Shown one piece after another: positions 40,046 through 60,329 of a stretch of DNA of 64,000 bases. How positions within the stretch are numbered: the stretch's first letter is position 1; every line of letters begins with the position of its first letter. Origin of the DNA: Pseudomonadota bacterium (lineage in GTDB: Bacteria; Pseudomonadota; Alphaproteobacteria; GCA-2746255); contig JBFMHN010000005.1 of assembly GCA_040752895.1 (NCBI GenBank), positions 139,626 through 203,625 of the forward strand. Direction: 5' to 3'. A program made the position numbers and the translations under genes. The notes beneath the pieces are model-generated. The model made no database searches. It was not told where the DNA came from and was given only the letters and a program-made list of their open reading frames with translations.

Positions 40046-40046
40046 C

Positions 40047-41762
40047 ATGCCAACGCCCAACCTCGGCATCCCGCACCTCGCAGCCTCCCAGAACCAGAAG
40101 GAGGTCACCGCCAACGACGCCTTCGACCGGCTCGACGAGGCGATGAACGACACCGCCTCGGTCGACTGCTCGGCCGGCAGCACCACCGTCGACGGCGCGA
40201 CCTTCACCCGCAACTTCGAGCTGGTGCTGACCGGCGCGCCGGCCGCCGCCTTCACGCTCAGCGTGCCCGACGGCAAGCGCTTCTTCCTGGTGAGGAACGC
40301 CACCGCGCAGGTCGCGACCGTGCAGCGGACCTCGGGCGGCGGCTCGGTCAACCTGACCGCGGGCCAGCGGCGCCTCCTCTACAACACCGGGACCGAGATC
40401 GTCGCCGCGGCGCCCGACGCCGCGGTGACCGGCGGCGGGGGCGGCGGGGGCGTGAGCGGCGCCGGCTTCCGCGGCGCGCTGGTCAAGCTCAGCGCCGACG
40501 CCAGCATCGCCAACCAGTCCCAGACCGCGATCGGCTGGGCGACCACGCTGTTCGACACCGACGGGTTCTGGAGCGGCGGCAGCCCGACCCGCCTCACGGT
40601 GCCCGCCGGCGTCTCCAAGGTGGTGGTCGTCGCCGGAGTCCAATGGGGCGCCAGCGCCACGGGCGACCGCTGGGTCGAGGTGCACCGGAACGGGGTCGAG
40701 GTGGAGGGGCTCCCCGGCAGCCTGATCGGGCCGCTCGGGAGCAGCAGCCGGGCCCGTCAGGCGGTGGTCTCGGCGCCGATCCAGGTGAGCCCGGGCGACT
40801 ACTTCGAGCTCCTGGCCTGGCAGAACAGCGGCGGCGCGCTCGCCGTCGAGGCCGACCCGCAGACCTGGTTCGCGGTCATGGCGGTCGACACCATCGCCCA
40901 GGCCTCGGAGGTTCGCGCGGTCCAGGTCAAGCGCACCACCGACCAGGCGATCGCGACCTCGACCATGACCGCGGTCGCCTGGGAGGCGGCCGAGTTCGAC
41001 GACGGCAGTATGTGGTCGGCCGGCAGCCCGACGCGGCTCACCGTGCCCGCCGGCGTCTCCAAGGTCCGGCTCAGTGCCAACCTGCGCTTCGCCACCACCT
41101 CGAGCGCGGGCTACCGCTTCATCCGCATCACGAGGAACGGCGCAAGCTTCGCCGGCCGGGCCGAGGACCTCGACACGGTGCCGAGCAACGGCGACAACGC
41201 GCTCTCGGTCACCACCGGCATCGTCCCGGTCCAGCCCGGCGACTACTTCGAGCTCGAGTGCTGGCAGAGCTCGGGCGGAAGCCTGAACGTCGCCGCCGGC
41301 GACGCCACCTGGTTCAACATGGAGGTGGTGGAACGGGTCGCGCCCGCCTTTCGCGGTGCGCTCGTCAACCTCACCGCCACCGAGCCGGTCCCGACCTCGA
41401 CCGACACGGCGCTCGCCTGGGACGCCGTGGTCTACGATACCGACGGCTTCTGGTCGGCCGGCAATCCGACGCGCCTCACGGTTCCCGCCGGCGTCTCCAA
41501 GGTGCGGCTCAAGGGCAACATCAGCTGGGGCTTCGGCGGCACCGGCTACCGGCACATCTGGGCCAGCAAGAACGGCGCCCTGTTCCCCGGTGCTGGCAAG
41601 GAGAGCGACGAGGGCGACAGCGGCGTCCAGAACTTCGCCTCTGCTGTCGTGCCTGTGGTCACCGGCGACTACTTCGAGTTTATCGCCCGCCAGACTTCGG
41701 GCTCCACCAAGAATGTGCTCGCCGCTGCCGACACCTGGTTCGCGATCGAGGTGGTCGAGTAG
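40047..41762 (+). CDS. tail fibre protein: DUF2793 N-terminal domain, Gly run, three tandem ~140 aa repeats
   Basis: N-terminus PNLGIPHLAASQNQKEVTANDAFDRLD (DUF2793-like). Repeats each contain (F/V)RGALV..., GFWSAG(S/N)PTRLTVPAGVSKVRL and PGDYFEL....(W/T)F..EVVE. Confidence 0.6.
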   Translation: MPTPNLGIPHLAASQNQKEVTANDAFDRLDEAMNDTASVDCSAGSTTVDGATFTRNFELVLTGAPAAAFTLSVPDGKRFFLVRNATAQVATVQRTSGGGSVNLTAGQRRLLYNTGTEIVAAAPDAAVTGGGGGGGVSGAGFRGALVKLSADASIANQSQTAIGWATTLFDTDGFWSGGSPTRLTVPAGVSKVVVVAGVQWGASATGDRWVEVHRNGVEVEGLPGSLIGPLGSSSRARQAVVSAPIQVSPGDYFELLAWQNSGGALAVEADPQTWFAVMAVDTIAQASEVRAVQVKRTTDQAIATSTMTAVAWEAAEFDDGSMWSAGSPTRLTVPAGVSKVRLSANLRFATTSSAGYRFIRITRNGASFAGRAEDLDTVPSNGDNALSVTTGIVPVQPGDYFELECWQSSGGSLNVAAGDATWFNMEVVERVAPAFRGALVNLTATEPVPTSTDTALAWDAVVYDTDGFWSAGNPTRLTVPAGVSKVRLKGNISWGFGGTGYRHIWASKNGALFPGAGKESDEGDSGVQNFASAVVPVVTGDYFEFIARQTSGSTKNVLAAADTWFAIEVVE

Positions 41763-41784
41763 ACGCGTCTCTGACCGTCGACTG

Positions 41785-41810
41785 ATTGGACCCGCCGCGA
41801 GGCGGGTTTC
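41785..41810 (+). terminator. rho-independent terminator candidate
   Basis: CCCGCCgcgaGGCGGG followed by TTTCGTGTG. Confidence 0.5.
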
Positions 41811-41829
41811 GTGTGTCTGGAGGAACCTC

Positions 41830-42111
41830 ATGAATGACGGAACGGATAGTGGGGGGCTTGTCAGCCTCCCAAAGGCCGAGCTTGAGCAGCTGCTGGGCCA
41901 GGCGGCCGCCCGCGGCGCCAGGCAGGCGCTCAAGGACATCGGCCTCGACAACGGCGAGGCGCGCGAGGACATCCGCGAGCTGCGCTCGCTCTTGGGCGCG
42001 CTGCGGCTCGCCCGGCGCACGGCGTGGCAGACCGCGGTGCGCGTGCTTACGACCGTGTTGCTCGCCGCTCTCCTCGCGCTCGCGGGGATCAAGCTCAAGC
42101 TGCTCGGCTGA
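41830..42111 (+). CDS. small membrane protein, possible holin
   Basis: 94 aa, single C-terminal TM (VLTTVLLAALLALAGIKL). Precedes the endolysin-like and spanin genes. Confidence 0.35.
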   Translation: MNDGTDSGGLVSLPKAELEQLLGQAAARGARQALKDIGLDNGEAREDIRELRSLLGALRLARRTAWQTAVRVLTTVLLAALLALAGIKLKLLG

Positions 42112-42147
42112 CGCCTCCGAGCGCTACCCGCCGTTCCAATCCGTCCA

Positions 42148-42172
42148 CCCGGCCGCCGCGAGGCGGCTTTTG
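42148..42172 (+). terminator. rho-independent terminator candidate
   Basis: GCCGCCgcgaGGCGGC followed by TTTTGA. Same core as the 41785 hairpin. Confidence 0.45.
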
Positions 42173-42189
42173 ATTCGAGGGAGCCTCCC

Positions 42190-42867
42190 ATGACCACGCA
42201 GACGCGAGCCCTGCCGCGCGGCATCCGCAATCACAACCCGCTCAACATCCGCTTGAACCCGGCCAACCGCTGGCAGGGGCGCATCGAGCCCGAGCGCAAC
42301 ACCGACGGTGCCTTCGAGCAGTTCGAGGGCCCCGTCTGGGGCCTGCGCGCCGGCGCCGTGCTGATCATCGCCCACTACAACCGCCGCGGCGCCGACACCA
42401 TCCGCAAGCTGGTGAGCATCTGGGCGCCGCCCAGCGAGAACGACACGGAAGCCTATGCCGCCTTCGTGGCGCGCGAGAGCGGCTTCGGCGCGGACCAGAA
42501 GCTCGACATGCACCGCGCCGAGCATCTGCGGCCCGTGCTTGTCGCGATGATCCGCATGGAGAACGGGCAGCAGCCCTACACGGACGCCCAAATCGACGCG
42601 GCGCTGGTGCGTGCCGGCGTGCTGCCGCCCGGGCGCCAGCTCAGCCAGTCGCGCACCGTGCGCGGCGGCCAGGCAGCGGCGACCGGCACGCTCGGCGCAG
42701 CGGCGATCGAAGCGGTGCAGGAGACGATCGGGCCGGCACAGGACGTGCTCGTCGGGATCGCGCCCTATCTCGATGCTGCCAAGTGGGCGCTGCTCCTCGT
42801 CACGCTGGTCGGCATCGGCGTGATGCTCTGGGCGCGGATCGACGACCGCCGCCGGGGGCTCCGGTGA
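42190..42867 (+). CDS. putative peptidoglycan hydrolase (endolysin-like) with C-terminal membrane anchor
   Basis: N-terminal RGIRNHNPLNIR motif, remembered from phage lysozyme-like proteins (recollection, not verified). C-terminal TM WALLLVTLVGIGVMLWA. Position between the fibre and the spanins. Confidence 0.4.
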   Translation: MTTQTRALPRGIRNHNPLNIRLNPANRWQGRIEPERNTDGAFEQFEGPVWGLRAGAVLIIAHYNRRGADTIRKLVSIWAPPSENDTEAYAAFVARESGFGADQKLDMHRAEHLRPVLVAMIRMENGQQPYTDAQIDAALVRAGVLPPGRQLSQSRTVRGGQAAATGTLGAAAIEAVQETIGPAQDVLVGIAPYLDAAKWALLLVTLVGIGVMLWARIDDRRRGLR

Positions 42868-43106
42868 TGTGGGCCCTGATCCAGCCCTGGCTCCTCCGCA
42901 ACGCCCTCGGCCTCCTCGGCTGGCTTGCCGCGGCGGCGGCCGCCGCGGCCGTGCTCGTGGGCGCCCGTCAGGCCGGGCGCAATGCCGAGCGCGTCGAGCG
43001 CATGAAGAAGACCATCGAGGTGCAACATGACCAGCTGGAAGCCGCTGCTCGCCGCCCTCGCGATCGCGACGAGCTTGCTCGCCGCCTGCGCGACGGCACC
43101 TTCTGA
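42867..43106 (+). CDS. i-spanin (Rz-like)
   Basis: N-terminal TM (LGLLGWLAAAAAAAAVLVGA) then charged coiled-coil. Overlaps the o-spanin gene. Confidence 0.5.
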   Translation: MWALIQPWLLRNALGLLGWLAAAAAAAAVLVGARQAGRNAERVERMKKTIEVQHDQLEAAARRPRDRDELARRLRDGTF

Positions 43107-43260
43107 CGGCGCGCCCTGTCCGCCGGTCGTGCCCTACAGCCAGAAGTTCCTCGCCCGGGCGGCCGACGAGCTCGACCGCCTGCCGCCCGGCTCGGCCATT
43201 GAGCAGATGCTCGCCGACTACCAGGTCATGCGGGATCAGGCACGGGCGTGCGGGCATTAG
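43027..43260 (+). CDS. o-spanin (Rz1-like lipoprotein)
   Basis: Signal peptide with lipobox LLAAC. Starts inside the i-spanin gene in another frame. Confidence 0.5.
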   Translation: MTSWKPLLAALAIATSLLAACATAPSDGAPCPPVVPYSQKFLARAADELDRLPPGSAIEQMLADYQVMRDQARACGH

Positions 43261-43428: not shown

Positions 43429-44649
43429 GTGGCGAACGAAACGAGGCTGATACGGTCGCAAGGGCTGTTCATCGAGGCCGAGGCGCCACTAGGTCTTGAC
43501 GAGTACCAGCAATTCACCACAAAAACCGACAAAAACGAGCGGCAAGGCATCGCCGGCTTAGGATTTGTTCTCCTCGGGTTGTTTGGGGAGGCGGGCAGCC
43601 TGCTAAGCGAACTCAAAAAGAAACAGCGAGATAAAGATTCCTACATCGCATACCACGACTCGGTTATCGAGGAGTTTGGCGATGTGCTTTGGTACTTCGC
43701 CAATGCAGCGCTTCGAGCCAACTTACCCCTCGCCGCGATCGCCAAGCTCTTACCGGCTAGTCTCGCCGACTGGGACTATCACGGCCGCGAGGGTGCATCC
43801 ACCTTCGTCGATCTCCAAACCGCAAAGGCAGAATTTAAGGGACCCCTCTCGACGGACATCGTCGAGCGTCGACTCTTGGCCCTAGCCGGGAATGTCGGTC
43901 AGCTCCTGGAGAATTTCAGCAACCGCAGATTTGATACTAATCGTGACGCGCTCTCGGCTGACCTCGTTGAAATCTTTCGCGCCCTAGTGGCTGCTGCCGA
44001 TGATGCCGACGTGAGTCTCGATGAGGCAGCACGCCGCAACATCGCAAAGACCTTGAGTCGATGGCCGATCGACCGCAAGTGGGATCCACCGTATGACGAT
44101 GATTTCGATGAGGACGAACGCCTGCCGCGCCGGATCGTGATGGTGTTCAAGGAGAAAGATGTTGGAGGGAAAAAATACGTCATCCAGCAGTGCAACGGCA
44201 TCAACATCGGGGATCGTCTGACGGACAACCGACTTGAACAAGATGATTATCGTTTTCATGACGTATTTCATCTCGCGTATGCAGCGATCCTTGGGTGGTC
44301 ACCGGTCATCCGGGCGCTGTTCAAGGTCAAGCGGAAGAGTCGTCCCGAGATCGATGAGAATCAAGACGGTGCGCGCGCCATCCTCATCGAGGAAGGCGTT
44401 TCCACCTGGATTTTTAACCATGCTCTTCGAAATCAACATTTCCGCAGCATCGATTCCCTCGACTATTCCCTTCTAAAGGCTGTTCGCGAACTCGTGAAAG
44501 GATATGAAGTGGAAAGCCGTCCGCATTGGCAGTGGGAGCTCGCCATCCTTGAAGGGTTCCGCGTATTCAGAGAAGTGTGCGCGCATCGGGGCGGCACCGT
44601 GATCGCCGACCTGAATGAGCACACCATTACGTTCAAAGGACCAAAATGA
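43429..44649 (+). CDS. MazG-like nucleoside triphosphate pyrophosphohydrolase domain fused to an uncharacterized ~250 aa C-terminal domain
   Basis: MazG motifs GLGFVLLGLFGEAGSLLSELKK and EEFGDVLWYFANAA. Local GC ~50% versus ~68% in the flanks. Confidence 0.6.
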   Translation: MANETRLIRSQGLFIEAEAPLGLDEYQQFTTKTDKNERQGIAGLGFVLLGLFGEAGSLLSELKKKQRDKDSYIAYHDSVIEEFGDVLWYFANAALRANLPLAAIAKLLPASLADWDYHGREGASTFVDLQTAKAEFKGPLSTDIVERRLLALAGNVGQLLENFSNRRFDTNRDALSADLVEIFRALVAAADDADVSLDEAARRNIAKTLSRWPIDRKWDPPYDDDFDEDERLPRRIVMVFKEKDVGGKKYVIQQCNGINIGDRLTDNRLEQDDYRFHDVFHLAYAAILGWSPVIRALFKVKRKSRPEIDENQDGARAILIEEGVSTWIFNHALRNQHFRSIDSLDYSLLKAVRELVKGYEVESRPHWQWELAILEGFRVFREVCAHRGGTVIADLNEHTITFKGPK

Positions 44650-45338
44650 GCCGCACCAATAAGAGTGAAGCACGGCAATTCGTCGAACGGCTAGCAGCGC
44701 TTCGTTTCGACACCGTTTTCAATCCCTATGCCCAAGCGTGCCCAGAATGGGACAGCGGCAACGCTGCGGCAACTCGTCGACGTAACCTTGAGCTCGTCCT
44801 TGAAGCCGCGATGGAAAAAGGGGTCGAGTCAATCTGGGTCGCGCGGGACCTAGGATATCGAGGTGGCCGTCGAACCGGTCTCGCCCTAACCGACGAAGTG
44901 CATCTTTCCTATCATGCGGCGCTGTTTGGTACGCCACCGCTCGCCCGCGCGACCAAGGGGCCCGCGGTAGCCGAACGAACCGCTGCCGTTGTATGGCAGA
45001 TGCTTCGCGCGATCGATCGTCCAATCTTTCTCTGGAATGTCTTCCCGCTTCACCCCCATCAGCCAGAAGACCCGATGTCGAATCGCTGCCACACGCGAGC
45101 GGAGCGGGCCGCTTGTCGACCCTTATTGGTCTGGCTTCTGGACGCGCTGCAGCCTCGCAACATAGTTGCTATTGGCCGGGATGCGCACGCTGCGCTTGAC
45201 GATCTGGGCGTAAGGGCAACGTCAGTGCGCCACCCGAGCTACGGCGGACAGCCGGAGTTCGTCAGCGGTCTAGCAGCTCTGTACGGTTTGTCCTCTATGG
45301 CGTCGAGCAATACTTCCCAGTTGCGTATGTTCCGGTAG
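44646..45338 (+). CDS. uncharacterized protein, possibly uracil-DNA glycosylase superfamily-like
   Basis: Start overlaps the stop of the MazG-like gene (ATGA). Gly-rich ARDLGYRGGRRTGLALTDE and C-terminal RHPSYGG loosely resemble the two UDG-superfamily motifs. Weak. Confidence 0.3.
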   Translation: MSRTNKSEARQFVERLAALRFDTVFNPYAQACPEWDSGNAAATRRRNLELVLEAAMEKGVESIWVARDLGYRGGRRTGLALTDEVHLSYHAALFGTPPLARATKGPAVAERTAAVVWQMLRAIDRPIFLWNVFPLHPHQPEDPMSNRCHTRAERAACRPLLVWLLDALQPRNIVAIGRDAHAALDDLGVRATSVRHPSYGGQPEFVSGLAALYGLSSMASSNTSQLRMFR

Positions 45339-45357
45339 CTTCATGACTCTGACCGAG

Positions 45358-45968
45358 TCACGCTGATCGCACCCAGTCAAGAGGAGCGCCAACGTATCCG
45401 TGCTGGCCAACGGACCGGATCCACTCGATAAATTCCGAAACGAGCGCATCGGGAAAATGGTTCTTATGTCCTCGGCCAGCGCATAGATCAAAGCCTCCGC
45501 AGTTACGGAAGCGCTTTAGGATTTTCGGACCTGTTCCGCCCCAATAGACATAATCAGTGCTCACGAGAACCCGATCAGTTTGTGTGTCATTCTCGATGTT
45601 TTTCTGATTCGCGCTTCCATCGGCATGGCTGTGATGGGAGTTCTCTTGATTCCAGCGACCCGACTTTGGATCACGGTGATAGATGTTATCGCCGAACGCC
45701 TGTTTCTTGCTTCCCGACAGCCTTGGCCTTTTGGGGAAGAAACGAGGGTCATGCCAATACTCGTCGAATGTCAGGGTCTCCGTGACGCGCATCGCGAACA
45801 CAATGTGGGCGTCACGGCCGCGCGACTTTGATCCAGTGCCTACCACCCAGTCGCCGACTTGGGCCATCCGCCTTATTATTGGCTTGCAGGTGGCGAGCGT
45901 GCAGAACCCATAGAAAGGGTTCGGCGCAAAGCCGTAGTCACGAGCGACGACGTAGGTGTACAGCGTCA
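45358..45968 (-). CDS. uncharacterized Cys/His-rich protein downstream of the TIR-like gene
   Basis: Conserved-looking N-terminus VTLYTYVVARDYGFAPNPFYGFCTLATCKP. C-terminal HHSHADGS and CGGFDLCAGRGHKNH. Proposed GTG start 10 nt after the TIR stop. The longer ATG-initiated ORF (to 46170) would overlap the TIR gene in another frame. Confidence 0.4.
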
Positions 45969-45979
45969 CCTGTCCATGC

Positions 45980-46456
45980 TCATCGGCAGCTATAGCGCTT
46001 GATGGGTCGATCCGACCGCAACTCACCAGAAGGAGTCCTCCAGTCGTTGATCTGTCCTGTGACCGCATCAATGATGCGATCGCTGTTCCATCCAACCACC
46101 GCATCGGCATATTTATCGAGTGCGTCTGGTACATCACACTCGGCGGCACCATGCGCCCAAACGCCGACAATGCGCTTTTCCGCTTTGTGGGCGTACTCGA
46201 TTTCCCAATCGACCCAGGGACTGTTACGAGTCTGCGGGGAGATATAGACGATCATGGTCCCAGCCCAGCGAATGCGCGGGGCTAGGATTTCGGACTTGAT
46301 GTAGTCGGGATTGGACGCGTCATTCGGCTTCTCAGCGTTGATGGACCCGTCCCGTATACTGAAGCCCTTATTCCCGAGAAGCTCCTTCAGCTTCCCCAGC
46401 CCTTCGTCGTCCTCATGAACGTGGCTGATGAAGACGTTTCGGGTTTCCTCGGTCAT
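45980..46456 (-). CDS. TIR-like domain protein (DUF1863 / Thoeris ThsB-like)
   Basis: N-terminal VFISHVHEDDEGLGKLKELL and later SPWVDWEIEYA match the bacterial TIR_2 pattern. Confidence 0.6.
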   Translation of the reverse strand: MTEETRNVFISHVHEDDEGLGKLKELLGNKGFSIRDGSINAEKPNDASNPDYIKSEILAPRIRWAGTMIVYISPQTRNSPWVDWEIEYAHKAEKRIVGVWAHGAAECDVPDALDKYADAVVGWNSDRIIDAVTGQINDWRTPSGELRSDRPIKRYSCR

Positions 46457-46560
46457 CGAGAATCTCCTCTATCGTTTCGTCCCATCCGTAGGGTGCCCAA
46501 CTCGGGGCAAGTCATCCTACCGTCTGCGACGTGTTGACCAGTCATTGATTTCTCGCTCAC

Positions 46561-47220
46561 TTAATCCGTCATGACCAAACGGCGCATGTGGTTGCGGTAG
46601 CTGATCAGGCGCTGGTTGACCCTTTCCATATCGGCCTTCAGTTCGTCGTATTTCGGAAACTTTTGTTGAATCTCCTGTGGATCGATCACCAGATCGCCGC
46701 TGGTCTTGTTCAGCTCGTTCTCATACCAACGGCGGAATCGCGCTTGCCACATCGTCAGGTGAGGCCGTAGCCCCTCGTTCAGAACCTCGATCGATAGCTT
46801 GATAATCTTCTGGGTGCTGCTGTGCCGCACCTTGTTGACGGGGACCGATTTTACGAGGTCCCGAGTGACGGCGAAGAATTCGTACCAACTGTTATAGATT
46901 TCAGCGATGACGTCATGGTCGAAATCGATCGGCAATCCAATTTTCCGTGTGCTCAGCTCCACCCATATTGCATAAGCTACCTGGCGATCCGTCATGTTTG
47001 GTTTGAGTCGAAGCTTGCCGGTGCCCGTTCCTATCTCGGCTTGGTCGATCTCGAAATCCTTCCAGCTGGAGCCACCAGAAAACCAACGCCAGCCAGCATA
47101 GACGAGAACCGCCACCAAGAGCGCGATACCAACCCAGAAGCTGACTTGGATCGATACCGACCAGTCCGAAAGGAGCCGTACGGACAAGAGGTCGATATTC
47201 GATTGGCTTGTGGTGTCCAT
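46561..47220 (-). CDS. membrane-anchored uncharacterized protein (single N-terminal TM plus ~170 aa cytoplasmic domain)
   Basis: TM VSFWVGIALLVAVLVYAGWRWF. Begins 5 nt after the upstream TIR gene's stop. Low GC. Confidence 0.45.
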   Translation of the reverse strand: MDTTSQSNIDLLSVRLLSDWSVSIQVSFWVGIALLVAVLVYAGWRWFSGGSSWKDFEIDQAEIGTGTGKLRLKPNMTDRQVAYAIWVELSTRKIGLPIDFDHDVIAEIYNSWYEFFAVTRDLVKSVPVNKVRHSSTQKIIKLSIEVLNEGLRPHLTMWQARFRRWYENELNKTSGDLVIDPQEIQQKFPKYDELKADMERVNQRLISYRNHMRRLVMTD

Positions 47221-47224
47221 CGAA

Positions 47225-47779
47225 TCACTCGCACTGCCGGTTGTACGTGAAGCGATCTCTGGGATTTTCGATCAAATGGGCATGTGTCGTTCGCCGCTGA
47301 AACGCCGCCTCGATGGCCTGCCATAGCTCGTCCGACGATTGCGGGTAGGCCATCCAACGGGCGAAGCAATCGCTTCCGGCAGCCTTCTTTTCAGGGGTCA
47401 GCAGATTCCTGTTCAGGCGATCCGGAAAGGCGCCATCCTCGGGGAAGGCAGGCATCTTGATGGCAAGCAACCCATTGGCAAGCCCGTTCTGCGGCGCCCG
47501 CAGCGATGCCTGGATTTCCCAGTCGACGTAGCGCCTCGCCCATGTGCATCTGCCCAGCATCACCAGCGTCACAGTCGAGTCGCGAATGTAAAGTTCGCGG
47601 ATGCGTCGCATGACGTACTCGGGGTCAGTGCTGTCAATGATGTCCTGAGCCATTGTCTGCCCTAGTCCGCGAGCAATGAACAGATTCTGCCCGTGATCAA
47701 ATGTGTTAACAAAGCGATCAACCCACGGCTGGTCGGCATGGTGATATGAGACGAAGCATTTGCGTCTCGTTGCATTCAT
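47225..47779 (-). CDS. TIR-like domain protein (DUF1863 / ThsB-like), second copy
   Basis: KCFVSYHHADQPWVDRFVNTF and RRYVDWEIQASL are classic TIR_2 motifs. Confidence 0.65.
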   Translation of the reverse strand: MNATRRKCFVSYHHADQPWVDRFVNTFDHGQNLFIARGLGQTMAQDIIDSTDPEYVMRRIRELYIRDSTVTLVMLGRCTWARRYVDWEIQASLRAPQNGLANGLLAIKMPAFPEDGAFPDRLNRNLLTPEKKAAGSDCFARWMAYPQSSDELWQAIEAAFQRRTTHAHLIENPRDRFTYNRQCE

Positions 47780-47797: not shown

Positions 47798-50560
47798 CTA
47801 TTCCACCTTTACCGCATCGGCGAGGCCGAGTTCCTGCAGGACCTGCCGAATCTCGTTCGCAAGGCCGGTCGCGGAATCGGCAGAGACAGTGACCGAGAAC
47901 TCGAGTCCGATCCTGAGTTCCGAGCCGGAGCGGAGCTTTGGCAGAATCTTCGTACCAAGGCGGTTCCAGACCTCCGGGGGGACGGCGCCCACAACGCGGA
48001 GTGTCCGTGTTGAAGTTGCGGGCTCGGGGGCGGGGCCAAGCGTGGGACCAGGTTCCGAAACGGGCGGGACCGTGGGGCCCGGCTCGGGCTCCGGACTTGG
48101 GGTGGGCATCGCTGGCTTCCCGGCCCTGAGCGCTTCCGCCGTGCTCTTCCTCAACAGGAACACTCCGGCGTCGAAAGCGACCTCGTCAGACGCAACCGCC
48201 TCCTGGAACCAGATCCGCTCGTACGTGCCGTCGGCCTTCTTGCCCGATGCCAAGCCGAAATCGCCGCGTGTCACGAACTCGACGATCTTGGACTTCAAAG
48301 TGGCGTCGGGATCGACGAGCCGAGTCAGCGAGCCATTGAGAAAGCTCTGTCGAAGGCTCGCAAGGGGCCAGGCGCCCGAGTCCTTCAGCGCCGGTGGCCA
48401 GTTGCGCTCGATGTATCCAGCGCCGACCGACTCGTTCAGGAGCGCTTCGGACTTGAGGGCGGCGATGACGCGCCCGCAAAGCGTCTCGCCGCTTGACGAA
48501 TGTCCCGCACCGAGGTCGATCACCTTGAGCCCATCCGCTTCCTGGCCGTCGGCAAGGATGGCGAAGCGGTAGCCGCCCCAGACCTCGTCCTTGGCGGCCT
48601 CTTCCGCGTCTTTGACCTTCGACTGGAGTTCCGCCCGGTCATTGCGGTCGAACTCCCCGCCCAGCGTGCCATCGGCCACCTCGCGCGCGACCCGCCTCCA
48701 TGCGAGCGCGAGCTCCACCTTCTCGCGCAGATCCCGCCCTGGCTTCTTGAGGCACCACACGAGCGCACCCGGATAGAGTCGGGGCGACTTGCCGCGGCTT
48801 CGAGTCCACTCGGCGATCTGGGTGCGGAGCGAGCCGGTGCCGGACCATTCCGTTTCGGGATCGGCTGCGACGAGCGTCAATCTGGGCGTGTCAGGAATCT
48901 CCGCGCCGTCGCGCGGGAAGGGGACGACAGGGATGCTGGCGCCACGCCGGAACTCGTCCTCGACGAGCTTCCGCATGGCGGGTTTGACCTCTGTCTCATG
49001 GTCAAGGGACGCCCGACGGTCGCTCACAACCTTCTTCATCGTCGGCTGATAGCCGATCCGGAATCCGTCCGTCCCCACCTTGCGCAGGAAGTAGGAGCGG
49101 TCTTCAAGCGCGAAGGCGGCATTATCGATGGTCGTCGTATCCAGCTCCGGCTCGCCGAGCGCGAAGCGGAGCTCCGGGAGATGCGCGACCTTGTCGGTCT
49201 GCCCGCCCGACGATTCGAACAAGATCGCGGTGCCAACCCGCTTGTGAATGTCGCGGAGCGGTCCCTTGGTATCGGCGTCGAGCGCCCTCGCATGAGCCTG
49301 CTCGCCGGCGATATCTGTGTCGATCGCAGCGACGAGGCGGGACTCGCCGAGCTGGCCCAGCACGACGCTGCGGAAGCCCGGCTCGGCCAGCGGTGCCGAC
49401 CCGAGCGTGATCAACGGCTCGGTGCGCGCCTTGCGGAACGCGTCCTGGGCCGCCAGCGATATCCACTGGGCCAGCATCGCGAGCGTGCCGCGCGTCTGCT
49501 GGTACTGCGGCAGCGGCTGCCATTTCCGTTGGAAGACTGACAGCGTCGCCGGATGGAACGGGTAACACGTCTCGAAGCGGCGCTGGAGGAACTCGCGCGC
49601 CTTGGCCTCGGTCGCCGCGGAATCCACCGCTGTCCACTCGGGCGGGAGCTGGGCGCGCCGCTCGAAGCACCAGTCGCCAAAGGCCCGCGCGACGCTCTTG
49701 CGGATCCTTTCGCTGCCAAGGTCCTGGAACAGCCGCCGGCGCACGACCTCGCTGATCTCGGTCTCGTCGTTGGCGATCAGGTCCTTGGCGACGCGGCGCA
49801 CCACCTTCGAAATCTTGTCCTGCCACTCCTGATCCCACTCGGTCATCTCCACCTGGCTGCGGGGAAGGGAAATCACGCATGCGCCGTGCGTAGTCCCCGT
49901 CGTGGCGACGGTCAGGTTCTGAATGAACGCATGGAATGAATCAGCGCTGCCCCGGTGGCGATTGAGGAAGTTTAGGACCTCGTCGAATAGCAGAAGCACA
50001 GGTGCCCCGGCGGCCTGGAAGACCCGCGCGATCGCGTCGGTGCCCGGCGGCGTGGTTTTCGCCGAAGGACCCAGCGCCTCGACGCCCTTGTCTCCGGCGA
50101 GCTGGCGAGCGATGTCGATCCACGGCGTCTCACGCCCCTCGCGCGGATCCCATGCGTTGCCGACAAAGACCGCGACCTTCCCTTTGGGCACGGTTGCGAC
50201 GCCCGCCTCCCGCACAAGATCGGCCACGCCCGAATAGCCCGCTGCCGCCTCGCCATTGCTTACGAGGTGGTAGAGCGTCGTGAGCGTATGCGTCTTGCCG
50301 CCACCGAACTGGGTGATCAGCGTGAGCACCGGCGCGGTATTCTCGGTCTTTCCTGAGAGCCGCCGAAGCACCATTCCTGCATGCTCGCGCAACGCCCTGG
50401 TGAAGCAGGTGCGGGCGAAGAACTGGTCGGGCTTCCGGTAATCCTCCGGCGCCGTCCCGGCCACGACCTGCTCAAGCGCGATGGCGAACTCGTCGGGGTT
50501 AAACGACCGGCCTTCGCGGACTTCCTTGCGCGGCGTCGCGACCTTGTACCAAGGTTCCAT
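47798..50560 (-). CDS. DUF499 family ATPase (COG1483-like), defense-associated
   Basis: 920 aa. P-loop ITQFGGGKTHTL and Walker B LLLFDEVLNF. The protein-level assignment to the DUF499 family rests mainly on the P-loop context and the adjacent DUF1156 partner. Confidence 0.6.
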   Translation of the reverse strand: MEPWYKVATPRKEVREGRSFNPDEFAIALEQVVAGTAPEDYRKPDQFFARTCFTRALREHAGMVLRRLSGKTENTAPVLTLITQFGGGKTHTLTTLYHLVSNGEAAAGYSGVADLVREAGVATVPKGKVAVFVGNAWDPREGRETPWIDIARQLAGDKGVEALGPSAKTTPPGTDAIARVFQAAGAPVLLLFDEVLNFLNRHRGSADSFHAFIQNLTVATTGTTHGACVISLPRSQVEMTEWDQEWQDKISKVVRRVAKDLIANDETEISEVVRRRLFQDLGSERIRKSVARAFGDWCFERRAQLPPEWTAVDSAATEAKAREFLQRRFETCYPFHPATLSVFQRKWQPLPQYQQTRGTLAMLAQWISLAAQDAFRKARTEPLITLGSAPLAEPGFRSVVLGQLGESRLVAAIDTDIAGEQAHARALDADTKGPLRDIHKRVGTAILFESSGGQTDKVAHLPELRFALGEPELDTTTIDNAAFALEDRSYFLRKVGTDGFRIGYQPTMKKVVSDRRASLDHETEVKPAMRKLVEDEFRRGASIPVVPFPRDGAEIPDTPRLTLVAADPETEWSGTGSLRTQIAEWTRSRGKSPRLYPGALVWCLKKPGRDLREKVELALAWRRVAREVADGTLGGEFDRNDRAELQSKVKDAEEAAKDEVWGGYRFAILADGQEADGLKVIDLGAGHSSSGETLCGRVIAALKSEALLNESVGAGYIERNWPPALKDSGAWPLASLRQSFLNGSLTRLVDPDATLKSKIVEFVTRGDFGLASGKKADGTYERIWFQEAVASDEVAFDAGVFLLRKSTAEALRAGKPAMPTPSPEPEPGPTVPPVSEPGPTLGPAPEPATSTRTLRVVGAVPPEVWNRLGTKILPKLRSGSELRIGLEFSVTVSADSATGLANEIRQVLQELGLADAVKVE

Positions 50561-50573
50561 TGCGATCCCCCTC

Positions 50574-51533
50574 CTACGGTCTCTGCAGGCGCGCGAACAG
50601 GTCGGTCGCCGTTCTCTTCAATCGGGCCAAATTGGCGTAAGCCACGGGCTCAAACCCGCGACCGCCCGCGTACATCCGGTAGCGGATGCCGTCGGTCACG
50701 ATCACATCGCGCGGAATCCCGAGCGCCTCCACATACCCCTTCCCCTGTTCCAGCGCGCCTTCAACGCCCGCACCCAGGCGTTTGGCTTCGATCACGAGAT
50801 GACAGTTTTCCGGCGTGCGCGGCAGGGCCCGAAATACCGCGACGTCGATGTAGCGCCACTTGACGGCAATCCGCTCCGGCGGCCAGCCGAGCGCGCGCAA
50901 AAAAGGCACGATGAAATGGGCGATCAGCTCGTCCTCGCTCGGAGGTTCGCCAAAGGCCTGGGAATCCTGGAACAGCGGGACGAGATCGGCGGCCTGAGCC
51001 ACGATTCCCCGCAGCCCGTCAGGCACTTCATCGATCGGCGGTTCCTCGGCTGGAAGCTCAGGCAACGGTGCCGTTTGCCAATGCGTCGGCGGGGATTTGA
51101 TGAAGCGCTCCGTGAAATCGATCACGTCCTGGCTCCACACCCGCGAGCAGCGCGGCGGATTGGCGCCGAAGGCCTGGCCCGCGAACGTATGCGGCTCGGG
51201 GAGGCGGCACCAGCGCACCCGCCGGCCGTGTTGCAGGTCCCAGCCGTTCACGTCGTCGAACGCGTTCAGGTACAAGTAATCGCTGGCCACGAGACCGACC
51301 GCCGCGATCGTCGCAAGACCCGTGCGCAGCAGGATCGCATCTCCTACCGTGACTTCGCTTGCGAAGCGCCGTACGAAGCCGCCCTCGAACTCGTTATCGT
51401 CGCGTTCGGGTTTCCAGGCCCCTGCATCGCCCGGGCCGATCAACACGACGCCGTGCTTGAGCAGAACGTCGGCATAGGACCGCGATGCCGGCCCGGCCGA
51501 GACTTGCCACACTGTCCGAGCAGAGACGGTCAT
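50574..51533 (-). CDS. PD-(D/E)xK nuclease-like protein
   Basis: C-terminal HLVIEAKRLG (ExK) with an upstream acidic residue context. ATG at MTVSARTVWQ forms a 4-6 nt overlap with the stop of the upstream DUF1156 gene. Confidence 0.45.
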   Translation of the reverse strand: MTVSARTVWQVSAGPASRSYADVLLKHGVVLIGPGDAGAWKPERDDNEFEGGFVRRFASEVTVGDAILLRTGLATIAAVGLVASDYLYLNAFDDVNGWDLQHGRRVRWCRLPEPHTFAGQAFGANPPRCSRVWSQDVIDFTERFIKSPPTHWQTAPLPELPAEEPPIDEVPDGLRGIVAQAADLVPLFQDSQAFGEPPSEDELIAHFIVPFLRALGWPPERIAVKWRYIDVAVFRALPRTPENCHLVIEAKRLGAGVEGALEQGKGYVEALGIPRDVIVTDGIRYRMYAGGRGFEPVAYANLARLKRTATDLFARLQRP

Positions 51534-51537
51534 CGGT

Positions 51538-54500
51538 TCACCTCGGCACCGCGAGAAGCATCGCGTCGAGGAGGCGCTTCTCCTCGCTGCCCCTCGGGTA
51601 GAGAGCGGAGAGGGCATTGGCGAGCCGCAGGAAGTCCGGGCTGCGCTCCTGCTCGGCCTTCAGCAGCGCACGCAGCGCATTGGTGCGGCCGCCCGCCTGG
51701 AGCAGCATGGCCGCGTGGATGCGGTCGAGGGTCGTGGCCTCCCGCGCAGAAGCCAAGCTTTCTTCCGAGACGTCGACGGCCATGCGCCCGCTGCGGCCCC
51801 GTGCGCCGCGGCCGCGCACTTTCGGAGCCGCCTCCATTTCGGGGAACAGCATGCCCTGAAGGGGATTGACGCCAGTCGAGGTTCCCAGCTCGAGCTGAGT
51901 GGCAACCGCCTGGGCGCCTTCGTCGCCGAAGAGCTGCTTCGCCCGCTCGGCGATGGGCAGCAGGCGCACGACGCCCTTCTTCGTCTCGATGACGCGGCCT
52001 TCCCACTTGGGCAAGTCGATTCCGAGCGGCTGGGCAAAGCGACGAACCACGTCGAAGACCAGCGTGAAGCCCTTCGCCTTGCCGCGTGACGCGCCTTCTT
52101 CGTCCTCCTCGTCGTCCGCCGCCTCCTCGTCCTTGCCGTCGTCGCTTGCGTTCTCCGCTACTTCGCCGTTCGTGCTCTGTAGCGTCCAGAGGAACAGCGC
52201 CGTGAGCCGCGCGTCCTCTTCTACGGCGCCGGCCGCACCGTTGCGCGCGCGCGCTTCGGCGGTGCCGAGCACCTGGCCGAGCGCGCTCCGACCCACGACC
52301 TCCCACACCTTCTCCAGGTACTCGGCGAGCGCAACCTCGCGCCCGTCGGCCGTTTCGACTTTGGCATAACGACTGAAGATTTCGAGCGCCGGTCCGATGC
52401 AAGCGAAGACGAGGTCGGCGCCACGGACGCCCTCGCCCTGCAGGTGCTCCATCCAGTCGCCAACGCGCTTCGGCAGCTCTCGCAGAACGTCGGCCCAGTC
52501 GCCGATCGGCGCGTCGTCGGGACGCGGGCGGCAGATGAGATGGACGCTGGTTGCGAGGGCGGCGGACTCTCTCGCGCGCAATCGAGAGCCCATTTCTGTT
52601 GCAATTGGCCACGACCCGGTGATTGTCCAACCGCCACGGATCATGCCGGAGAGCAGCGCTTCCCAGCCCTCCGTCGTCTTATGAGCAAAAACGACTGAAC
52701 CGACACCGTCTTCGCACAGTACTCGGCGACCCTCGCCAAAGGCGCGCCCCATAGCGGTTTCGAAAAAAGCCTTTGTCTTTGGCTGGCCATCCTCGGCTTC
52801 ATACCGCTCATCTTGCACGATTTCTTGACGTTTCGGCGTAAGTGGATTCGCCGCGTCAAACGGATCACGAAGGGCGTTCCGCTGAGCGAGAGACCGCTTG
52901 AGCCAGACAAAGAAAAAATCCGCCAATTCCGCGTAGCCAATCGCATCATAGTATGGCGGGTCGGTAAACCAGACCTGACAAGACGCGTCGGGTAACGGCG
53001 ACCTTGTGGCATCCGCGACTTGGACCTGTGCGGTTGAGCTGGTTGGAAAGTAACATTGGGAAATAGTATGACCGCTTCTTTCAACTGAGCTGTCGAAACT
53101 TCCGCTGGAGGACTCAGTAAGAACCGCCTCAGCGTAATCCCAAACCATTGAAATGGCTTGGCGCGCAAAGAGATTTACTGGACACTCAGCATCAAGTTTC
53201 CACCGAACAAATGAATTTCCAAGGTCGATCGATTTGTTAAGGCACAGCGCCATCAAATCTTGCAGTGCTGGTTGCTCTTCCAGTGTTGAGCATATTGTCT
53301 TCGCAAGGGCATGCGCGGTGGCGAGCTGTCGCGGGTTTAGCAAGTCCTTCCACTGCTTGACTCCGTAGTTGGGCACCCTAAAGCAGTTTGTATTTCTCGG
53401 CGGCAACGGTTCATCCGGCACCGGACAGAGACCCTGCTTCCCGTTGCGTTCCCATTCGTCGAGTAGCTTCGCCACGTGCACACGCGCCTTGCGCACCGCC
53501 TCGTAATCGCGCTCAGTCGGCAGCCGATAGTGCCGACCGGTCTCGCCCGGCTTTAGCGTCACCACCGCAAGCATCCGTGCTCCTGCCGAGCGTTGACCCT
53601 TCTCGTCGAACACCACGTCTGCACCGCCGCGCTGGGTGGAAAGTTGTGCTCGTACTCGCTCGGGTGGCAGGACCGCACCGCAGGAGATGCAGGTCGCCTT
53701 GGCGCGAGTCACGGTGCCGCCCGGCACATCCTTCTCAGTCTTCGGCTCGAAGACCTGGAACTCGACGCGTGGCGGCTGGCCCTGTGAACGTTCGACCCGG
53801 TGGCGGAGCGCTCGCTTGCGGCTCGCCTTTTTGCTGAGCCAGAACGAACGCGCGAGCGGAATTTCGGCGCCGCAGTTGGGCGACTCGCAGCGTACGGTGC
53901 GCACCCAGAGATAGGCGATCGGCACCGCACCATCCGGGTCCTTCGGATAGAAGCCGGCGAGTTCCTTTTCCGCCTTCTTCTTGATCTCCGCGCCGATGAG
54001 GCGAAGCTCTTCTGCGAGCTTCGGGCCATGGCGCGGGATGTCCTCTAGCATCACTTTCAGGATCAAACAGGCGACGGGGTTGAGATCGCTCGCGAAGGCC
54101 TCGCAGCCCACCCGCAGCGCTTCCAGAGGGATCGAGCCGCCACCGGCGAACGGGTCCACGACCAGTGGCGGCTCTTCCCCATGCGCCGCCTTCACCAGCG
54201 CGCGGCTGACATCGAGATAGGTGCGGTTGGACGCGAGATCCCAGTTCGCAAAGTCGGCGACGAATTTGAGCAACGCCTTGCGCAGGTCCTCGTCCGTTGT
54301 GCCTGGATTGCAACCTGCGACCTGCCGCAGGAGCTTTTGCGCCTGCTCCTTGAACTCACGCGGACACAGTGGATCGCACGGATCGGGCCAGAGGAGACCG
54401 AGCAGGACCGCCCGGCTCGACGCCAATGGCCGCCGCGCCCACCAAAGATGGAGCGTGCTCGGGTGCCCATGACGGATCGACTTCTCCCGTGCCGCGTGCC

Positions 54501-54561
54501 GCGACACTTCGGCGATCGGGAAATCCACTTCGGCAAGACGCTTGCAGTCTTTGGGGATCAT
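51538..54561 (-). CDS. DUF1156 family (COG1743) adenine-specific DNA methyltransferase
   Basis: N-terminal MIPKDCKRLAEVDFPIAEVSRHAAREKSIRHGHPSTLHLWWARRPLA is the DUF1156 signature. Downstream motif I VVDPFAGGGSIPLEA and later TDPPYYD (motif IV). Confidence 0.8.
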   Translation of the reverse strand: MIPKDCKRLAEVDFPIAEVSRHAAREKSIRHGHPSTLHLWWARRPLASSRAVLLGLLWPDPCDPLCPREFKEQAQKLLRQVAGCNPGTTDEDLRKALLKFVADFANWDLASNRTYLDVSRALVKAAHGEEPPLVVDPFAGGGSIPLEALRVGCEAFASDLNPVACLILKVMLEDIPRHGPKLAEELRLIGAEIKKKAEKELAGFYPKDPDGAVPIAYLWVRTVRCESPNCGAEIPLARSFWLSKKASRKRALRHRVERSQGQPPRVEFQVFEPKTEKDVPGGTVTRAKATCISCGAVLPPERVRAQLSTQRGGADVVFDEKGQRSAGARMLAVVTLKPGETGRHYRLPTERDYEAVRKARVHVAKLLDEWERNGKQGLCPVPDEPLPPRNTNCFRVPNYGVKQWKDLLNPRQLATAHALAKTICSTLEEQPALQDLMALCLNKSIDLGNSFVRWKLDAECPVNLFARQAISMVWDYAEAVLTESSSGSFDSSVERSGHTISQCYFPTSSTAQVQVADATRSPLPDASCQVWFTDPPYYDAIGYAELADFFFVWLKRSLAQRNALRDPFDAANPLTPKRQEIVQDERYEAEDGQPKTKAFFETAMGRAFGEGRRVLCEDGVGSVVFAHKTTEGWEALLSGMIRGGWTITGSWPIATEMGSRLRARESAALATSVHLICRPRPDDAPIGDWADVLRELPKRVGDWMEHLQGEGVRGADLVFACIGPALEIFSRYAKVETADGREVALAEYLEKVWEVVGRSALGQVLGTAEARARNGAAGAVEEDARLTALFLWTLQSTNGEVAENASDDGKDEEAADDEEDEEGASRGKAKGFTLVFDVVRRFAQPLGIDLPKWEGRVIETKKGVVRLLPIAERAKQLFGDEGAQAVATQLELGTSTGVNPLQGMLFPEMEAAPKVRGRGARGRSGRMAVDVSEESLASAREATTLDRIHAAMLLQAGGRTNALRALLKAEQERSPDFLRLANALSALYPRGSEEKRLLDAMLLAVPR

Positions 54562-57995: not shown

Positions 57996-58115
57996 CGGAC
58001 ACTCCTTTGGCCTTCAACTGCCTGAACCTGAGTCTGGGCAGTGCGACCTGAAAGGCGCTCGGAGTCGTCGTCCAACCGGTTACCGAATTCAAAGACGTCC
58101 ATCCCCTCTCCCCGC

Positions 58116-60308: not shown

Positions 60309-60329
60309 CGTCTCTGGGGGTGCTGAACG

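What the first reader, a model, noticed from the sequence alone, without database searches (positions are those of the whole stretch)
45358..47779. Non-canonical TIR locus: two TIR-like (DUF1863) genes, each followed by a different unassigned partner
On the minus strand the order is TIR-like protein, single-pass membrane protein (5 nt spacing), a ~100 nt gap, a second TIR-like protein, and then a conserved-looking Cys/His-rich ~200 aa protein that probably starts at a GTG just after the TIR stop. TIR_2/ThsB-like proteins act as NADase signal generators in Thoeris. No SIR2, SLOG or Macro ThsA-type effector is recognisable here. The partners (a TM protein and a Cys/His-rich soluble protein) may be unrecognised effector or sensor classes, or this could be two independent TIR-plus-effector pairs. 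The low GC and the neighbouring defense genes support a defense role.
Basis: partly seen in the sequence, partly recalled or inferred. Interest (0 to 1): 0.8.

Follow-up and report, generated by a model that had tools for sequence, protein, structure and literature searches.

The report
Two TIR defence modules, both already described

Summary
Four minus-strand genes lie at 45358-47779 with the stated order and spacing, in a low-GC defence island next to Hma and IetAS.

The "Cys/His-rich" protein is Pfam Nmad2 (E 3e-72), with a predicted PUA-like fold. In 54 of 60 related loci from many phyla a TIR2-type gene sits directly upstream of Nmad2. Half of the loci also carry MazG-MazG_C, with or without UDG. 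The same TIR-Nmad2 pair ends E. coli system DS-4, which DefensePredictor (Science 2026) validated. That paper also shows the MazG/MazG-C/NMAD/UDG set as a predicted, untested system.

TIR1 is closest to type VI Thoeris ThsB proteins (39-44% identity). The membrane protein is homologous (hhalign 98.7%) to the gene occupying the ThsG effector position next to such TIRs. Both TIRs keep the catalytic Glu.

All six genes move as one 4.3-kb cassette. The possibly new point is that the ThsG-like protein often sits beside TIR2-Nmad2 operons that have no TIR1. The mechanism of the Nmad2 module remains inferred.

The parts
47225..47779 (-). TIR1: ThsB-type TIR protein, 184 aa, with the catalytic-Glu motif YVDWE(88)I. 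It is closest to the ThsB proteins of TM-type type VI Thoeris.
   Evidence: Pfam ThsB_TIR 2.7e-16. Aligns with BcThsB 6LHY/9B7D so that E88 matches E85. blastp against the Yirmiya Table S1 TIRs gives type VI Gammaproteobacteria scaffold 41% identity at 4e-22, E. coli S1 44% at 5e-18 and E. coli ACN001 39% at 3e-16; the next best type scores 1e-8. The start codon is 18 nt after the HmaC stop.
46561..47220 (-). ThsG-like membrane protein, 219 aa: short N-terminus, one TM helix (about residues 28-47), a disordered linker, then a cytoplasmic four-helix bundle (76-217) with many invariant polar residues. Proposed effector.
46457..46560 (-). 104-nt intergenic spacer between the two pairs, with a GAGGAG Shine-Dalgarno sequence before the TIR2 ATG.
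   Evidence: Sequence reading. No consensus promoter or terminator found here.
45980..46456 (-). TIR2: ThsB-type TIR protein, 158 aa, motif WVDWE(85)I. It is the conserved upstream partner of Nmad2.
   Evidence: Pfam ThsB_TIR 1.7e-24; PADLOC ThsB PDLC00418 2.7e-67. 36% identical to the TIR of validated system DS-4 (8e-34). E85, W84, F9, S11 and H12 are at least 90% conserved in 57 homologues. A TIR2-type gene lies directly upstream of Nmad2 in 54 of 60 loci.
45358..45969 (-). Nmad2 protein, 203 aa, GTG start 10 nt after the TIR2 stop. Predicted PUA-like (YTH/EVE/ASCH) fold.
44646..45338 (+). UDG-superfamily protein, 230 aa, convergent with Nmad2 (19 nt between the two stop codons). Its start overlaps the MazG_C stop (ATGA).
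   Evidence: Pfam UDG 1.7e-8; weak family-4 hits. Follows MazG_C in 14 of 55 Nmad2 loci and in L063, L066 and others.
43429..44649 (+). MazG-MazG_C protein, 406 aa: an N-terminal all-alpha NTP pyrophosphohydrolase with an EExGDxLW-type motif, followed by the MazG_C domain.
   Evidence: Pfam MazG_C 9.7e-81 and MazG 0.003; PHROG MazG-like 2e-47. Present in 26 of 55 Nmad2 loci. Lies inside the 4362-nt block shared with Iodidimonas muriae.

Best explanation
The finding is part of a six-gene, horizontally acquired defence cassette (43429-47779) made of two modules of already described kinds.

Module 1 is TIR1 plus the membrane protein. It is a type VI-like Thoeris pair. By analogy with validated type VI systems, TIR1 (ThsB) detects infection and uses its catalytic Glu to turn NAD+ into a cyclic ADP-ribose isomer, 2'cADPR in the validated systems. 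That signal binds the cytoplasmic helical domain of the membrane-anchored ThsG-like protein, which oligomerises and damages the membrane, stopping growth.

Module 2 is TIR2 plus Nmad2, together with the convergent MazG-MazG_C and UDG genes. It belongs to a TIR-Nmad2 'nucleotide-centred' system family whose E. coli relative DS-4 gives phage protection. I infer that TIR2 and Nmad2 work as a tight pair. The TIR cleaves an N-glycosidic bond, of NAD+ or of a nucleotide. The PUA-like Nmad2 binds a nucleotide or a modified base. The outcome is executed on the dNTP pool or on DNA by the MazG pyrophosphohydrolase and the UDG-like glycosylase.

What is shown: gene identities, homologies, conserved linkage, intact catalytic motifs and cassette mobility. 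What is inferred: every biochemical step.
For: TIR-Nmad2 linkage:
- A TIR2-type gene is directly upstream of Nmad2, on the same strand, with a 0-49 nt gap, in 54 of 60 loci. These come from Chloroflexota, Pseudomonadota, Planctomycetota, Acidobacteriota, Desulfobacterota, Bacillota and others.
- MazG_C is present in 26 of 55 loci and UDG in 14 of 55. Alternative enzyme sets are thymidylate-synthase-like (12 loci) and 5-hmdU DNA kinase (24 loci).
- DS-4 (thymidylate synthase, dNMP kinase, 5-hmdU kinase, TIR, Nmad2) was experimentally validated. The MazG/MazG-C/NMAD/UDG set is shown as a predicted system in PMC13092281.
- The window proteins are 36% and 50% identical to the DS-4 TIR and Nmad2.

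Type VI Thoeris link:
- TIR1 matches TM-type type VI ThsBs best.
- The membrane-protein family is homologous to the effector-position gene next to such TIRs in Listeria and E. coli.
- A TIR1-type gene is adjacent in about half of 80 membrane-protein loci, including stand-alone two-gene pairs.
- The type VI mechanism is described in bioRxiv 10.64898/2025.12.03.692087.

Other support:
- Catalytic Glu is present in both TIRs.
- Nmad2 has a PUA-like fold.
- One continuous 4362-nt alignment with Iodidimonas muriae (74.9% identity) covers exactly MazG to TIR1, with different flanks.
- The cassette has low GC and lies in a defence island.
Against: - The membrane protein, 94 of its homologues and the Listeria ThsG-position protein give no HMMER hit to PF20355 (DUF6650), the domain that defines ThsG. 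The link therefore rests on profile-profile homology to a neighbour of type VI-like TIRs, plus the papers' own HHpred-level annotation.
- A DUF6650-annotated region of the SMEK protein did not align.
- The homologous region covers only the C-terminal 112-117 residues.
- Gene order here (TIR then effector) differs from the E. coli and Listeria examples.
- DS-4 protection recorded in the table passage I read was weak: about 0.9 log against lambda, with small plaques.
- The MazG_C/UDG configuration has never been tested.
- The membrane protein often accompanies TIR2-Nmad2 without any TIR1, which argues against two fully independent modules.
Confidence: 0.6

Rival explanations
1. One integrated system rather than two modules. 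It would be a Thoeris-like locus with two ThsB sensors (TIR1 and TIR2) that both feed the same ThsG-like membrane effector. Nmad2, MazG-MazG_C and UDG would act as accessory components, for example as a second effector arm or as signal-processing or signal-limiting enzymes.
For: Among 80 loci anchored on the membrane protein, about 30 carry Nmad2, and all but three of those (L109, L122, L132) lack a TIR1-type gene. TIR2 is then the only TIR next to the effector. It is often a single same-strand operon, TM-TIR2-Nmad2-MazG_C-UDG, as in L066, L077, L079, L082, L086, L087 and L100. The six genes transfer as one block. Loci with several ThsB genes are normal for Thoeris.
Against: About 39 of 55 Nmad2 loci have no membrane-protein homologue at all, and validated DS-4 has none. 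TIR1+TM pairs also occur alone. A 104-nt gap separates the two pairs here.
Confidence: 0.3
2. The TIR2-Nmad2 module is not a signalling system but acts directly on non-canonical nucleotides or DNA. Nmad2 (PUA-like) would recognise a modified base such as 5-hydroxymethyl-pyrimidine. TIR2 would act as a nucleotide N-glycosidase, like the related nucleoside 2-deoxyribosyltransferase fold. MazG would hydrolyse modified dNTPs and UDG would excise the base from DNA. The result would be restriction of phages with hypermodified DNA, or production of a toxic nucleotide.
For: Every alternative enzyme found with TIR-Nmad2 acts on deoxynucleotides, and three of the sets on C5-modified pyrimidines: thymidylate-synthase-like, dNMP kinase, 5-hmdU DNA kinase and MazG. 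Nmad2's nearest folds are modified-base readers, including those of modification-dependent nucleases VcaM4I, McrB-N and PD-T4-3. A related TIR in these loci gives a weak Nuc_deoxyrib_tr hit. From my own knowledge, not read here: Burroughs et al. 2015 proposed nucleotide-processing roles for such TIR-like domains. PMC13092281 cites that paper for predicting some of these domains in defence.
Against: TIR2 scores as a full-length ThsB (PADLOC 2.7e-67) and is nearest to signal-producing type VIII ThsBs (32% identity, 3e-17). The membrane effector's frequent partnership with TIR2 suggests a diffusible signal. There is no biochemical evidence for either view.
Confidence: 0.25
3. One reading: the two partners are unrecognised, new effector or sensor classes of a non-canonical Thoeris.
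For: Neither partner is SIR2, SLOG or Macro. The membrane protein has no hit in any HMM library.
Against: Nmad2 is a curated Pfam family and part of a published validated or predicted system. The membrane protein is homologous to the effector-position gene of TM-type type VI Thoeris.
Confidence: 0.1
4. The genes serve housekeeping nucleotide sanitation or repair (MazG, UDG), and the TIR-like proteins are unrelated passengers, so there is no defence role.
For: MazG and UDG families include housekeeping enzymes.
Against: The cassette has low GC, sits between Hma and a GTA cluster, and transfers as a block. Its linkage to ThsB-type TIRs is strict across phyla. Related loci sit next to type I R-M, IetAS-like and AbiJ genes. 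A relative protects against phage.
Confidence: 0.03

Closest known systems
Type VI Thoeris (ThsB + ThsG, 'DUF6650 and TM' subtype; Yirmiya et al., bioRxiv 10.64898/2025.12.03.692087)
   Same: It is a two-gene TIR plus effector operon. TIR1 is 39-44% identical to the three validated TM-type type VI ThsBs. The effector has an N-terminal TM segment followed by a cytoplasmic helical domain, and is homologous (hhalign 98.7%) to the gene in the ThsG position next to such TIRs. Soluble variants of the effector domain also exist (c15), as described for ThsG.
   Different: There is no direct HMMER match to PF20355. Identity to the E. coli and Listeria effector family is only about 19% over 112 columns. 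The gene order is TIR then effector. The pair is embedded in a cassette with a second TIR and an Nmad2 module. Signal molecule and oligomer state are untested.
DS-4 ('NTTI') of DefensePredictor (PMC13092281): thymidylate synthase, dNMP kinase, 5-hmdU DNA kinase, TIR, Nmad2
   Same: It has the same terminal TIR-Nmad2 gene pair, tightly coupled (36% and 50% identity). It is a defence-island gene set built around deoxynucleotide enzymes, and was experimentally shown to affect phage.
   Different: The window has MazG-MazG_C and UDG instead of the thymidylate synthase, kinase and 5-hmdU kinase, and they are on the opposite strand. DS-4 has no ThsG-like membrane protein and no second TIR.
Predicted MazG/MazG-C + NMAD + UDG system (PMC13092281 Fig. 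6F, S12B)
   Same: The domain set matches window genes 43429-46456.
   Different: It is published only as a prediction, with no experiment and no mechanism. The figure itself could not be inspected, so I cannot say whether a TIR or a membrane protein is drawn in it.
Canonical Thoeris types I and II (ThsB + SIR2-SLOG ThsA, or Macro-TM effector)
   Same: ThsB-type TIRs with the catalytic Glu, and probably signal-then-effector logic.
   Different: No SIR2, SLOG or Macro domain is present anywhere in the island.
PUA-like modified-base or nucleotide sensors in defence (EVE/YTH/ASCH readers; PUA-Cal-HAD and Metis, which sense m6dAMP: PMC12871103, bioRxiv 10.1101/2025.11.05.686725)
   Same: The Nmad2 model has the PUA-like barrel shared by these readers.
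   Different: There is no sequence similarity. The Nmad2 ligand is unknown. Its many invariant polar residues (D11, K29, D94, H112, H113, D128) could equally indicate an enzyme.

Membership tests
Thoeris type VI (ThsB + ThsG) | ThsB-type TIR protein with the catalytic glutamate | tested here: met
   TIR1 matches PF08937 at 2.7e-16. E88 aligns with BcThsB E85. W87 and E88 are conserved in TIR1-like homologues.
Thoeris type VI (ThsB + ThsG) | The TIR groups with known type VI ThsBs | tested here: met
   The best blastp hits among Table S1 TIRs of all types are the three TM-type type VI ThsBs (4e-22 to 3e-16). Other types score 1e-8 or worse. This used a small sample of sequences, not a phylogeny.
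Thoeris type VI (ThsB + ThsG) | Adjacent effector carrying the DUF6650 (PF20355) domain, with or without TM helices | tested here: inconclusive
   No PF20355 hit by HMMER for the window protein, 43 close homologues, 51 distant homologues or the Listeria protein. However, hhalign gives 98.1-98.7% to the effector-position family beside ACN001-like ThsBs and 85.6% to the E. coli remnant. The paper annotates that E. coli effector as 'DUF6650 and TM'.
Thoeris type VI (ThsB + ThsG) | 2'cADPR production on infection, and effector toxicity triggered by 2'cADPR | not testable with these tools
   Needs LC-MS and growth assays.
Thoeris types I and II | ThsA with SIR2-SLOG, or a Macro-TM effector | tested here: not met
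   No such Pfam or PADLOC hit in any gene between 43 and 63 kb.
Nmad2 (Pfam PF18753) | Full-length match above the gathering score | tested here: met
   242.7 bits against a cut-off of 26.1, E 3.2e-72, profile positions 3-198 of 200.
DS-4-type TIR-Nmad2 systems | A ThsB-type TIR gene immediately upstream of Nmad2 on the same strand | tested here: met
   10-nt spacer here. The same arrangement holds in 54 of 60 loci. The window proteins are homologous to the DS-4 pair.
DS-4-type TIR-Nmad2 systems | Thymidylate synthase, dNMP kinase and 5-hmdU DNA kinase genes | tested here: not met
   These are absent from the window. MazG-MazG_C and UDG occupy that role. Both enzyme sets occur among related loci.
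Predicted MazG/MazG-C-NMAD-UDG system | Co-located MazG+MazG_C, Nmad2 and UDG-superfamily genes | tested here: met
   Defence activity of this configuration has not been tested by anyone.
PUA-like fold (YTH/EVE/ASCH) | Structural match of Nmad2 to PUA-like barrels | tested here: inconclusive
SLATT / other known membrane effectors | Match to SLATT or another effector HMM | tested here: not met
   No hit for the membrane protein in Pfam or PADLOC.

The most novel reading that the evidence does not exclude
TIR2-Nmad2 is a further, unnamed branch of TIR signalling. In it, a PUA-like protein (Nmad2) would be the receptor or effector for a TIR-made nucleotide and would direct MazG and UDG-type enzymes at the dNTP pool or at DNA. 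The ThsG-like membrane protein would be a shared second effector, so the window would encode a two-sensor, two-effector Thoeris-like circuit. The recurrent TM-TIR2-Nmad2-MazG_C-UDG operons that lack TIR1 are the evidence that does not exclude this reading.
Probability: 0.25. Interest if true: 0.7.

Novelty: new variant of a known kind. Interest (0 to 1): 0.42.

Why it matters
This gives a natural locus in which a type VI-like Thoeris pair and a TIR-Nmad2 nucleotide system are joined in one mobile cassette. The mechanism of Nmad2 systems is unknown, even though one relative has been validated. Three results here turn that vague prediction into concrete experiments on which molecule each TIR makes and what Nmad2 binds:
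- Nmad2 looks PUA-like.
- Its TIR keeps the catalytic Glu.
- A ThsG-like effector often pairs with that TIR alone.

The practical value is moderate. The gene families and system types themselves are already published.

Tried and rejected
- **HMM libraries.** Pfam, NCBIfam, PADLOC and PHROG scans of the membrane protein found nothing. Scanning 43 close and 51 distant homologues for DUF6650 also found nothing.
- **SMEK protein.** Comparison with the DUF6650-annotated C-terminus of the SMEK protein showed no relation. That annotation was itself only 88% probable.
- **E. coli type VI effector.** The plasmid copy (p13TMH22-1) turned out to be degenerate, with a frameshifted TIR and a broken effector. 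I used the Listeria orthologue instead.
- **Older papers.** Burroughs et al. 2015 and Iyer et al. 2013 are not held in the library. Statements about them are from memory or from the citing paper.
- **Yirmiya Table S1.** Searching for Nmad, PUA, MazG or TIR2-like motifs found nothing, but the file is truncated.
- **Solved structures.** Sequence searches for Nmad2 and MazG_C found none.
- **Promoters and terminators.** The scan found no more sites than the shuffled controls and none in the intergenic gaps, so it says nothing about operon structure.
- **Rejected ideas.** I rejected HEPN for the helical domain, because there is no Rx4-6H motif. I rejected Hma membership for TIR1, because the same cassette sits next to type I R-M in Iodidimonas.
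Full report
**1. Observation**

The four minus-strand genes are present as described.

| Gene | Coordinates | Length | Spacing to next gene |
|---|---|---|---|
| TIR1 | 47779-47225 | 184 aa | 4 nt |
| Membrane protein | 47220-46561 | 219 aa | 104 nt |
| TIR2 | 46456-45980 | 158 aa | 10 nt |
| Fourth gene | GTG 45969 to 45358 | 203 aa | n/a |

- The GTG start of the fourth gene is supported by a 100%-identical 203-aa NCBI protein and by homologues that are almost all about 200-205 aa long.
- Both TIRs match ThsB_TIR (2.7e-16 and 1.7e-24).
- GC is 0.53-0.60 in these genes against 0.69 upstream.
- The block lies between a GTA-type tail gene (36551-40045) and a complete Hma system (HmaC/B/A, 47798-57995), followed by IetA/IetS.
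- No SIR2, SLOG or Macro domain occurs in the island.

**2. The soluble partner is Nmad2, and the unit is larger than reported**

The "Cys/His-rich" protein matches Pfam Nmad2 over its whole length (3.2e-72). The genes convergent with it are MazG-MazG_C (43429-44649; MazG_C 9.7e-81) and a UDG-superfamily protein (44646-45338).

A genome scan with Nmad2 returned 62 loci from many phyla. By tblastn:
- A TIR2-type gene lies directly upstream on the same strand, with a 0-49 nt gap, in 54 of 60 loci that have enough upstream sequence.
- MazG_C is nearby in 26 of 55 loci.
- UDG is nearby in 14 of 55 loci.

De novo clustering of neighbouring genes showed alternative enzyme sets: 5-hmdU DNA kinase (PF18723, 24 loci) and thymidylate-synthase-like proteins (12 loci).

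The literature already covers this family. DefensePredictor (PMC13092281) validated E. coli system DS-4, which consists of thymidylate synthase, dNMP kinase, 5-hmdU kinase, TIR and Nmad2. The same paper displays a MazG/MazG-C/NMAD/UDG set as predicted but untested, and cites Burroughs et al. 2015 for earlier predictions of several of these domains. The window TIR2 and Nmad2 are 36% and 50% identical to the DS-4 pair.

**3. Nmad2 structure**

- An AlphaFold model built on 45 homologues has pLDDT 84.7 and pTM 0.85.
- Foldseek lists the same families with weak statistics.
- No homologue exists in 50,697 phage records. Nineteen plasmids carry one.
- The fold assignment is probable, not proven.
- The many invariant polar residues leave open whether Nmad2 is a binder or an enzyme.

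**4. The membrane partner**

Contexts chosen independently of Nmad2 are informative.
- TIR-TM pairs occur alone (L067-69).
- A TIR-TM-TIR triplet occurs in L065.
- TM-TIR2-Nmad2-MazG_C-UDG operons also occur (L063, L066).
- In 80 metagenomic loci, about 41 have a TIR1-type gene adjacent and about 30 have Nmad2 nearby.
- Of 34 loci with good flanks, all but one have one or the other once two mis-scored cases are corrected.

**5. Link to type VI Thoeris**

Yirmiya et al. (bioRxiv 10.64898/2025.12.03.692087) define type VI Thoeris as a TIR plus ThsG (DUF6650, with or without N-terminal TM helices). It signals through 2'cADPR and was validated with three "DUF6650 and TM" systems.

- Against a sample of their TIR sequences, TIR1 hits exactly those three best (41%, 44% and 39% identity; 4e-22 to 3e-16). 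Other types score 1e-8 or worse.
- Using the E. coli ACN001 TIR, I found a Listeria locus in which a 262-aa gene abuts a 56%-identical TIR.
- The window family profile aligns to that protein at 98.1% (E 7e-14) and to its family profile at 98.7% (E 4e-16, 112 columns). They share an L..LT..Q...RRW motif.
- The degenerate E. coli remnant upstream of a 98%-identical ACN001-type TIR also aligns (85.6%).
- Direct HMMER detection of PF20355 failed for every sequence tried. I therefore treat membership as likely but not closed.
- A soluble variant of the domain (cluster c15; hhalign 94%) parallels the TM-less ThsG proteins described in the paper.

**6. Catalytic competence**

TIR1 E88 aligns with the catalytic E85 of BcThsB. 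TIR2 E85 and the F-S-H N-terminal motif are at least 90% conserved across 57 homologues. The MazG domain keeps an EExGDxLW-type motif, and the UDG-like protein keeps an HPS motif (sequence reading).

**7. Cassette**

A single 4362-nt alignment with Iodidimonas muriae (74.9% identity) spans 43436-47764, exactly from MazG to TIR1. On the TIR1 side Iodidimonas has type I R-M where the window has Hma. The six genes therefore travel together.

**8. Interpretation**

The best-supported reading is two modules of known kinds: a type VI-like Thoeris pair, and a TIR-Nmad2-MazG_C-UDG system related to DS-4.

The mechanism of the first follows by analogy with validated systems. The mechanism of the second is inferred only from folds and linkage.

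The main rival is an integrated circuit, because the ThsG-like gene usually accompanies TIR2-Nmad2 without TIR1. A second rival is direct action on modified nucleotides or DNA rather than signalling.

**9. Novelty and score**

Both families and both system types are already published, one validated and one predicted. What may be new is:
- the recurrent coupling of the ThsG-like effector with TIR2-Nmad2 operons;
- the six-gene cassette;
- the PUA-like assignment for Nmad2, which I could not check against the older Aravind-lab papers.

I rate this a new variant of a known kind, with interest 0.42.

Noticed in passing
window 47798-57995: A complete Hma system: HmaC 47798-50560, HmaB 51538-54741, HmaA 54558-57995 by PADLOC. 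An extra 347-aa ORF (50574-51617) lies between HmaB and HmaC and has no family hit. The HmaC stop is only 18 nt upstream of the TIR1 start, so read-through transcription into the TIR cassette is possible.
   Followed up: partly
window 58041-62873: An IetA/IetS (AAA ATPase plus S8 protease) defence pair lies at 59259-62873. It is preceded by a 337-aa ORF (58041-59054) with no family hit. An IetAS-like pair and AbiJ also flank a related TM/Nmad2 locus (L070).
   Followed up: no
window 36551-43260: A GTA/phage-tail gene (Phage-tail_3 plus Rcc01698_C) lies at 36551-40045. Two overlapping small ORFs follow: 42783-43106, which has an N-terminal hydrophobic stretch, and 43027-43260, which has a lipobox-like LAAC. 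They look like a spanin-type pair just before the low-GC island begins.
   Followed up: no
window 41935-42041 and L001 13953-14059: A 107-nt stretch about 1.4 kb beyond MazG is 80% identical between the window and Iodidimonas muriae. The cassette may therefore occupy the same chromosomal site on that side in both genomes, while the other side differs (Hma versus type I R-M).
   Followed up: partly
L016, L018, L025, L026, L031 (for example L031 10628-11500): In Nmad2 loci that lack the window's membrane protein, a different pair recurs: a small ThsB_TIR protein (cluster c38) followed by a roughly 155-aa multi-TM protein (cluster c16) with no Pfam hit. This is a possible alternative TIR plus membrane-effector module.
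   Followed up: partly
L003-L005, L017, L041, L045, L046, L056: A 540-aa protein with a C-terminal TIR_2 domain (cluster c12) sits next to a TIR1-like gene in many Nmad2 loci, so some of these loci carry three or four TIR genes.
   Followed up: no
L009, L011, L013-L015, L057, L059 (Dehalococcoidia): A TM-less, 165-aa version of the membrane protein's helical domain (cluster c15) lies directly upstream of the TIR1-like gene. It is part of a seven-gene array: 5-hmdU kinase, thymidylate-synthase-like, c15, TIR1-like, TIR2, Nmad2.
   Followed up: partly
L152 (E. coli plasmid NZ_CP019257.1, 1-1702): A decayed type VI Thoeris copy. The TIR is 98% identical to the validated ACN001 ThsB but frameshifted, and the upstream effector reading frame is broken by stop codons.
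   Followed up: partly
window 45358-46170: The longest ORF for Nmad2 (270 aa, TTG start) overlaps TIR2 by 190 nt and is an artefact of ORF extension. A second in-frame GTG at 46026 has a good GGAGGA Shine-Dalgarno sequence 9 nt upstream, but homologue lengths favour the GTG at 45969.
   Followed up: yes
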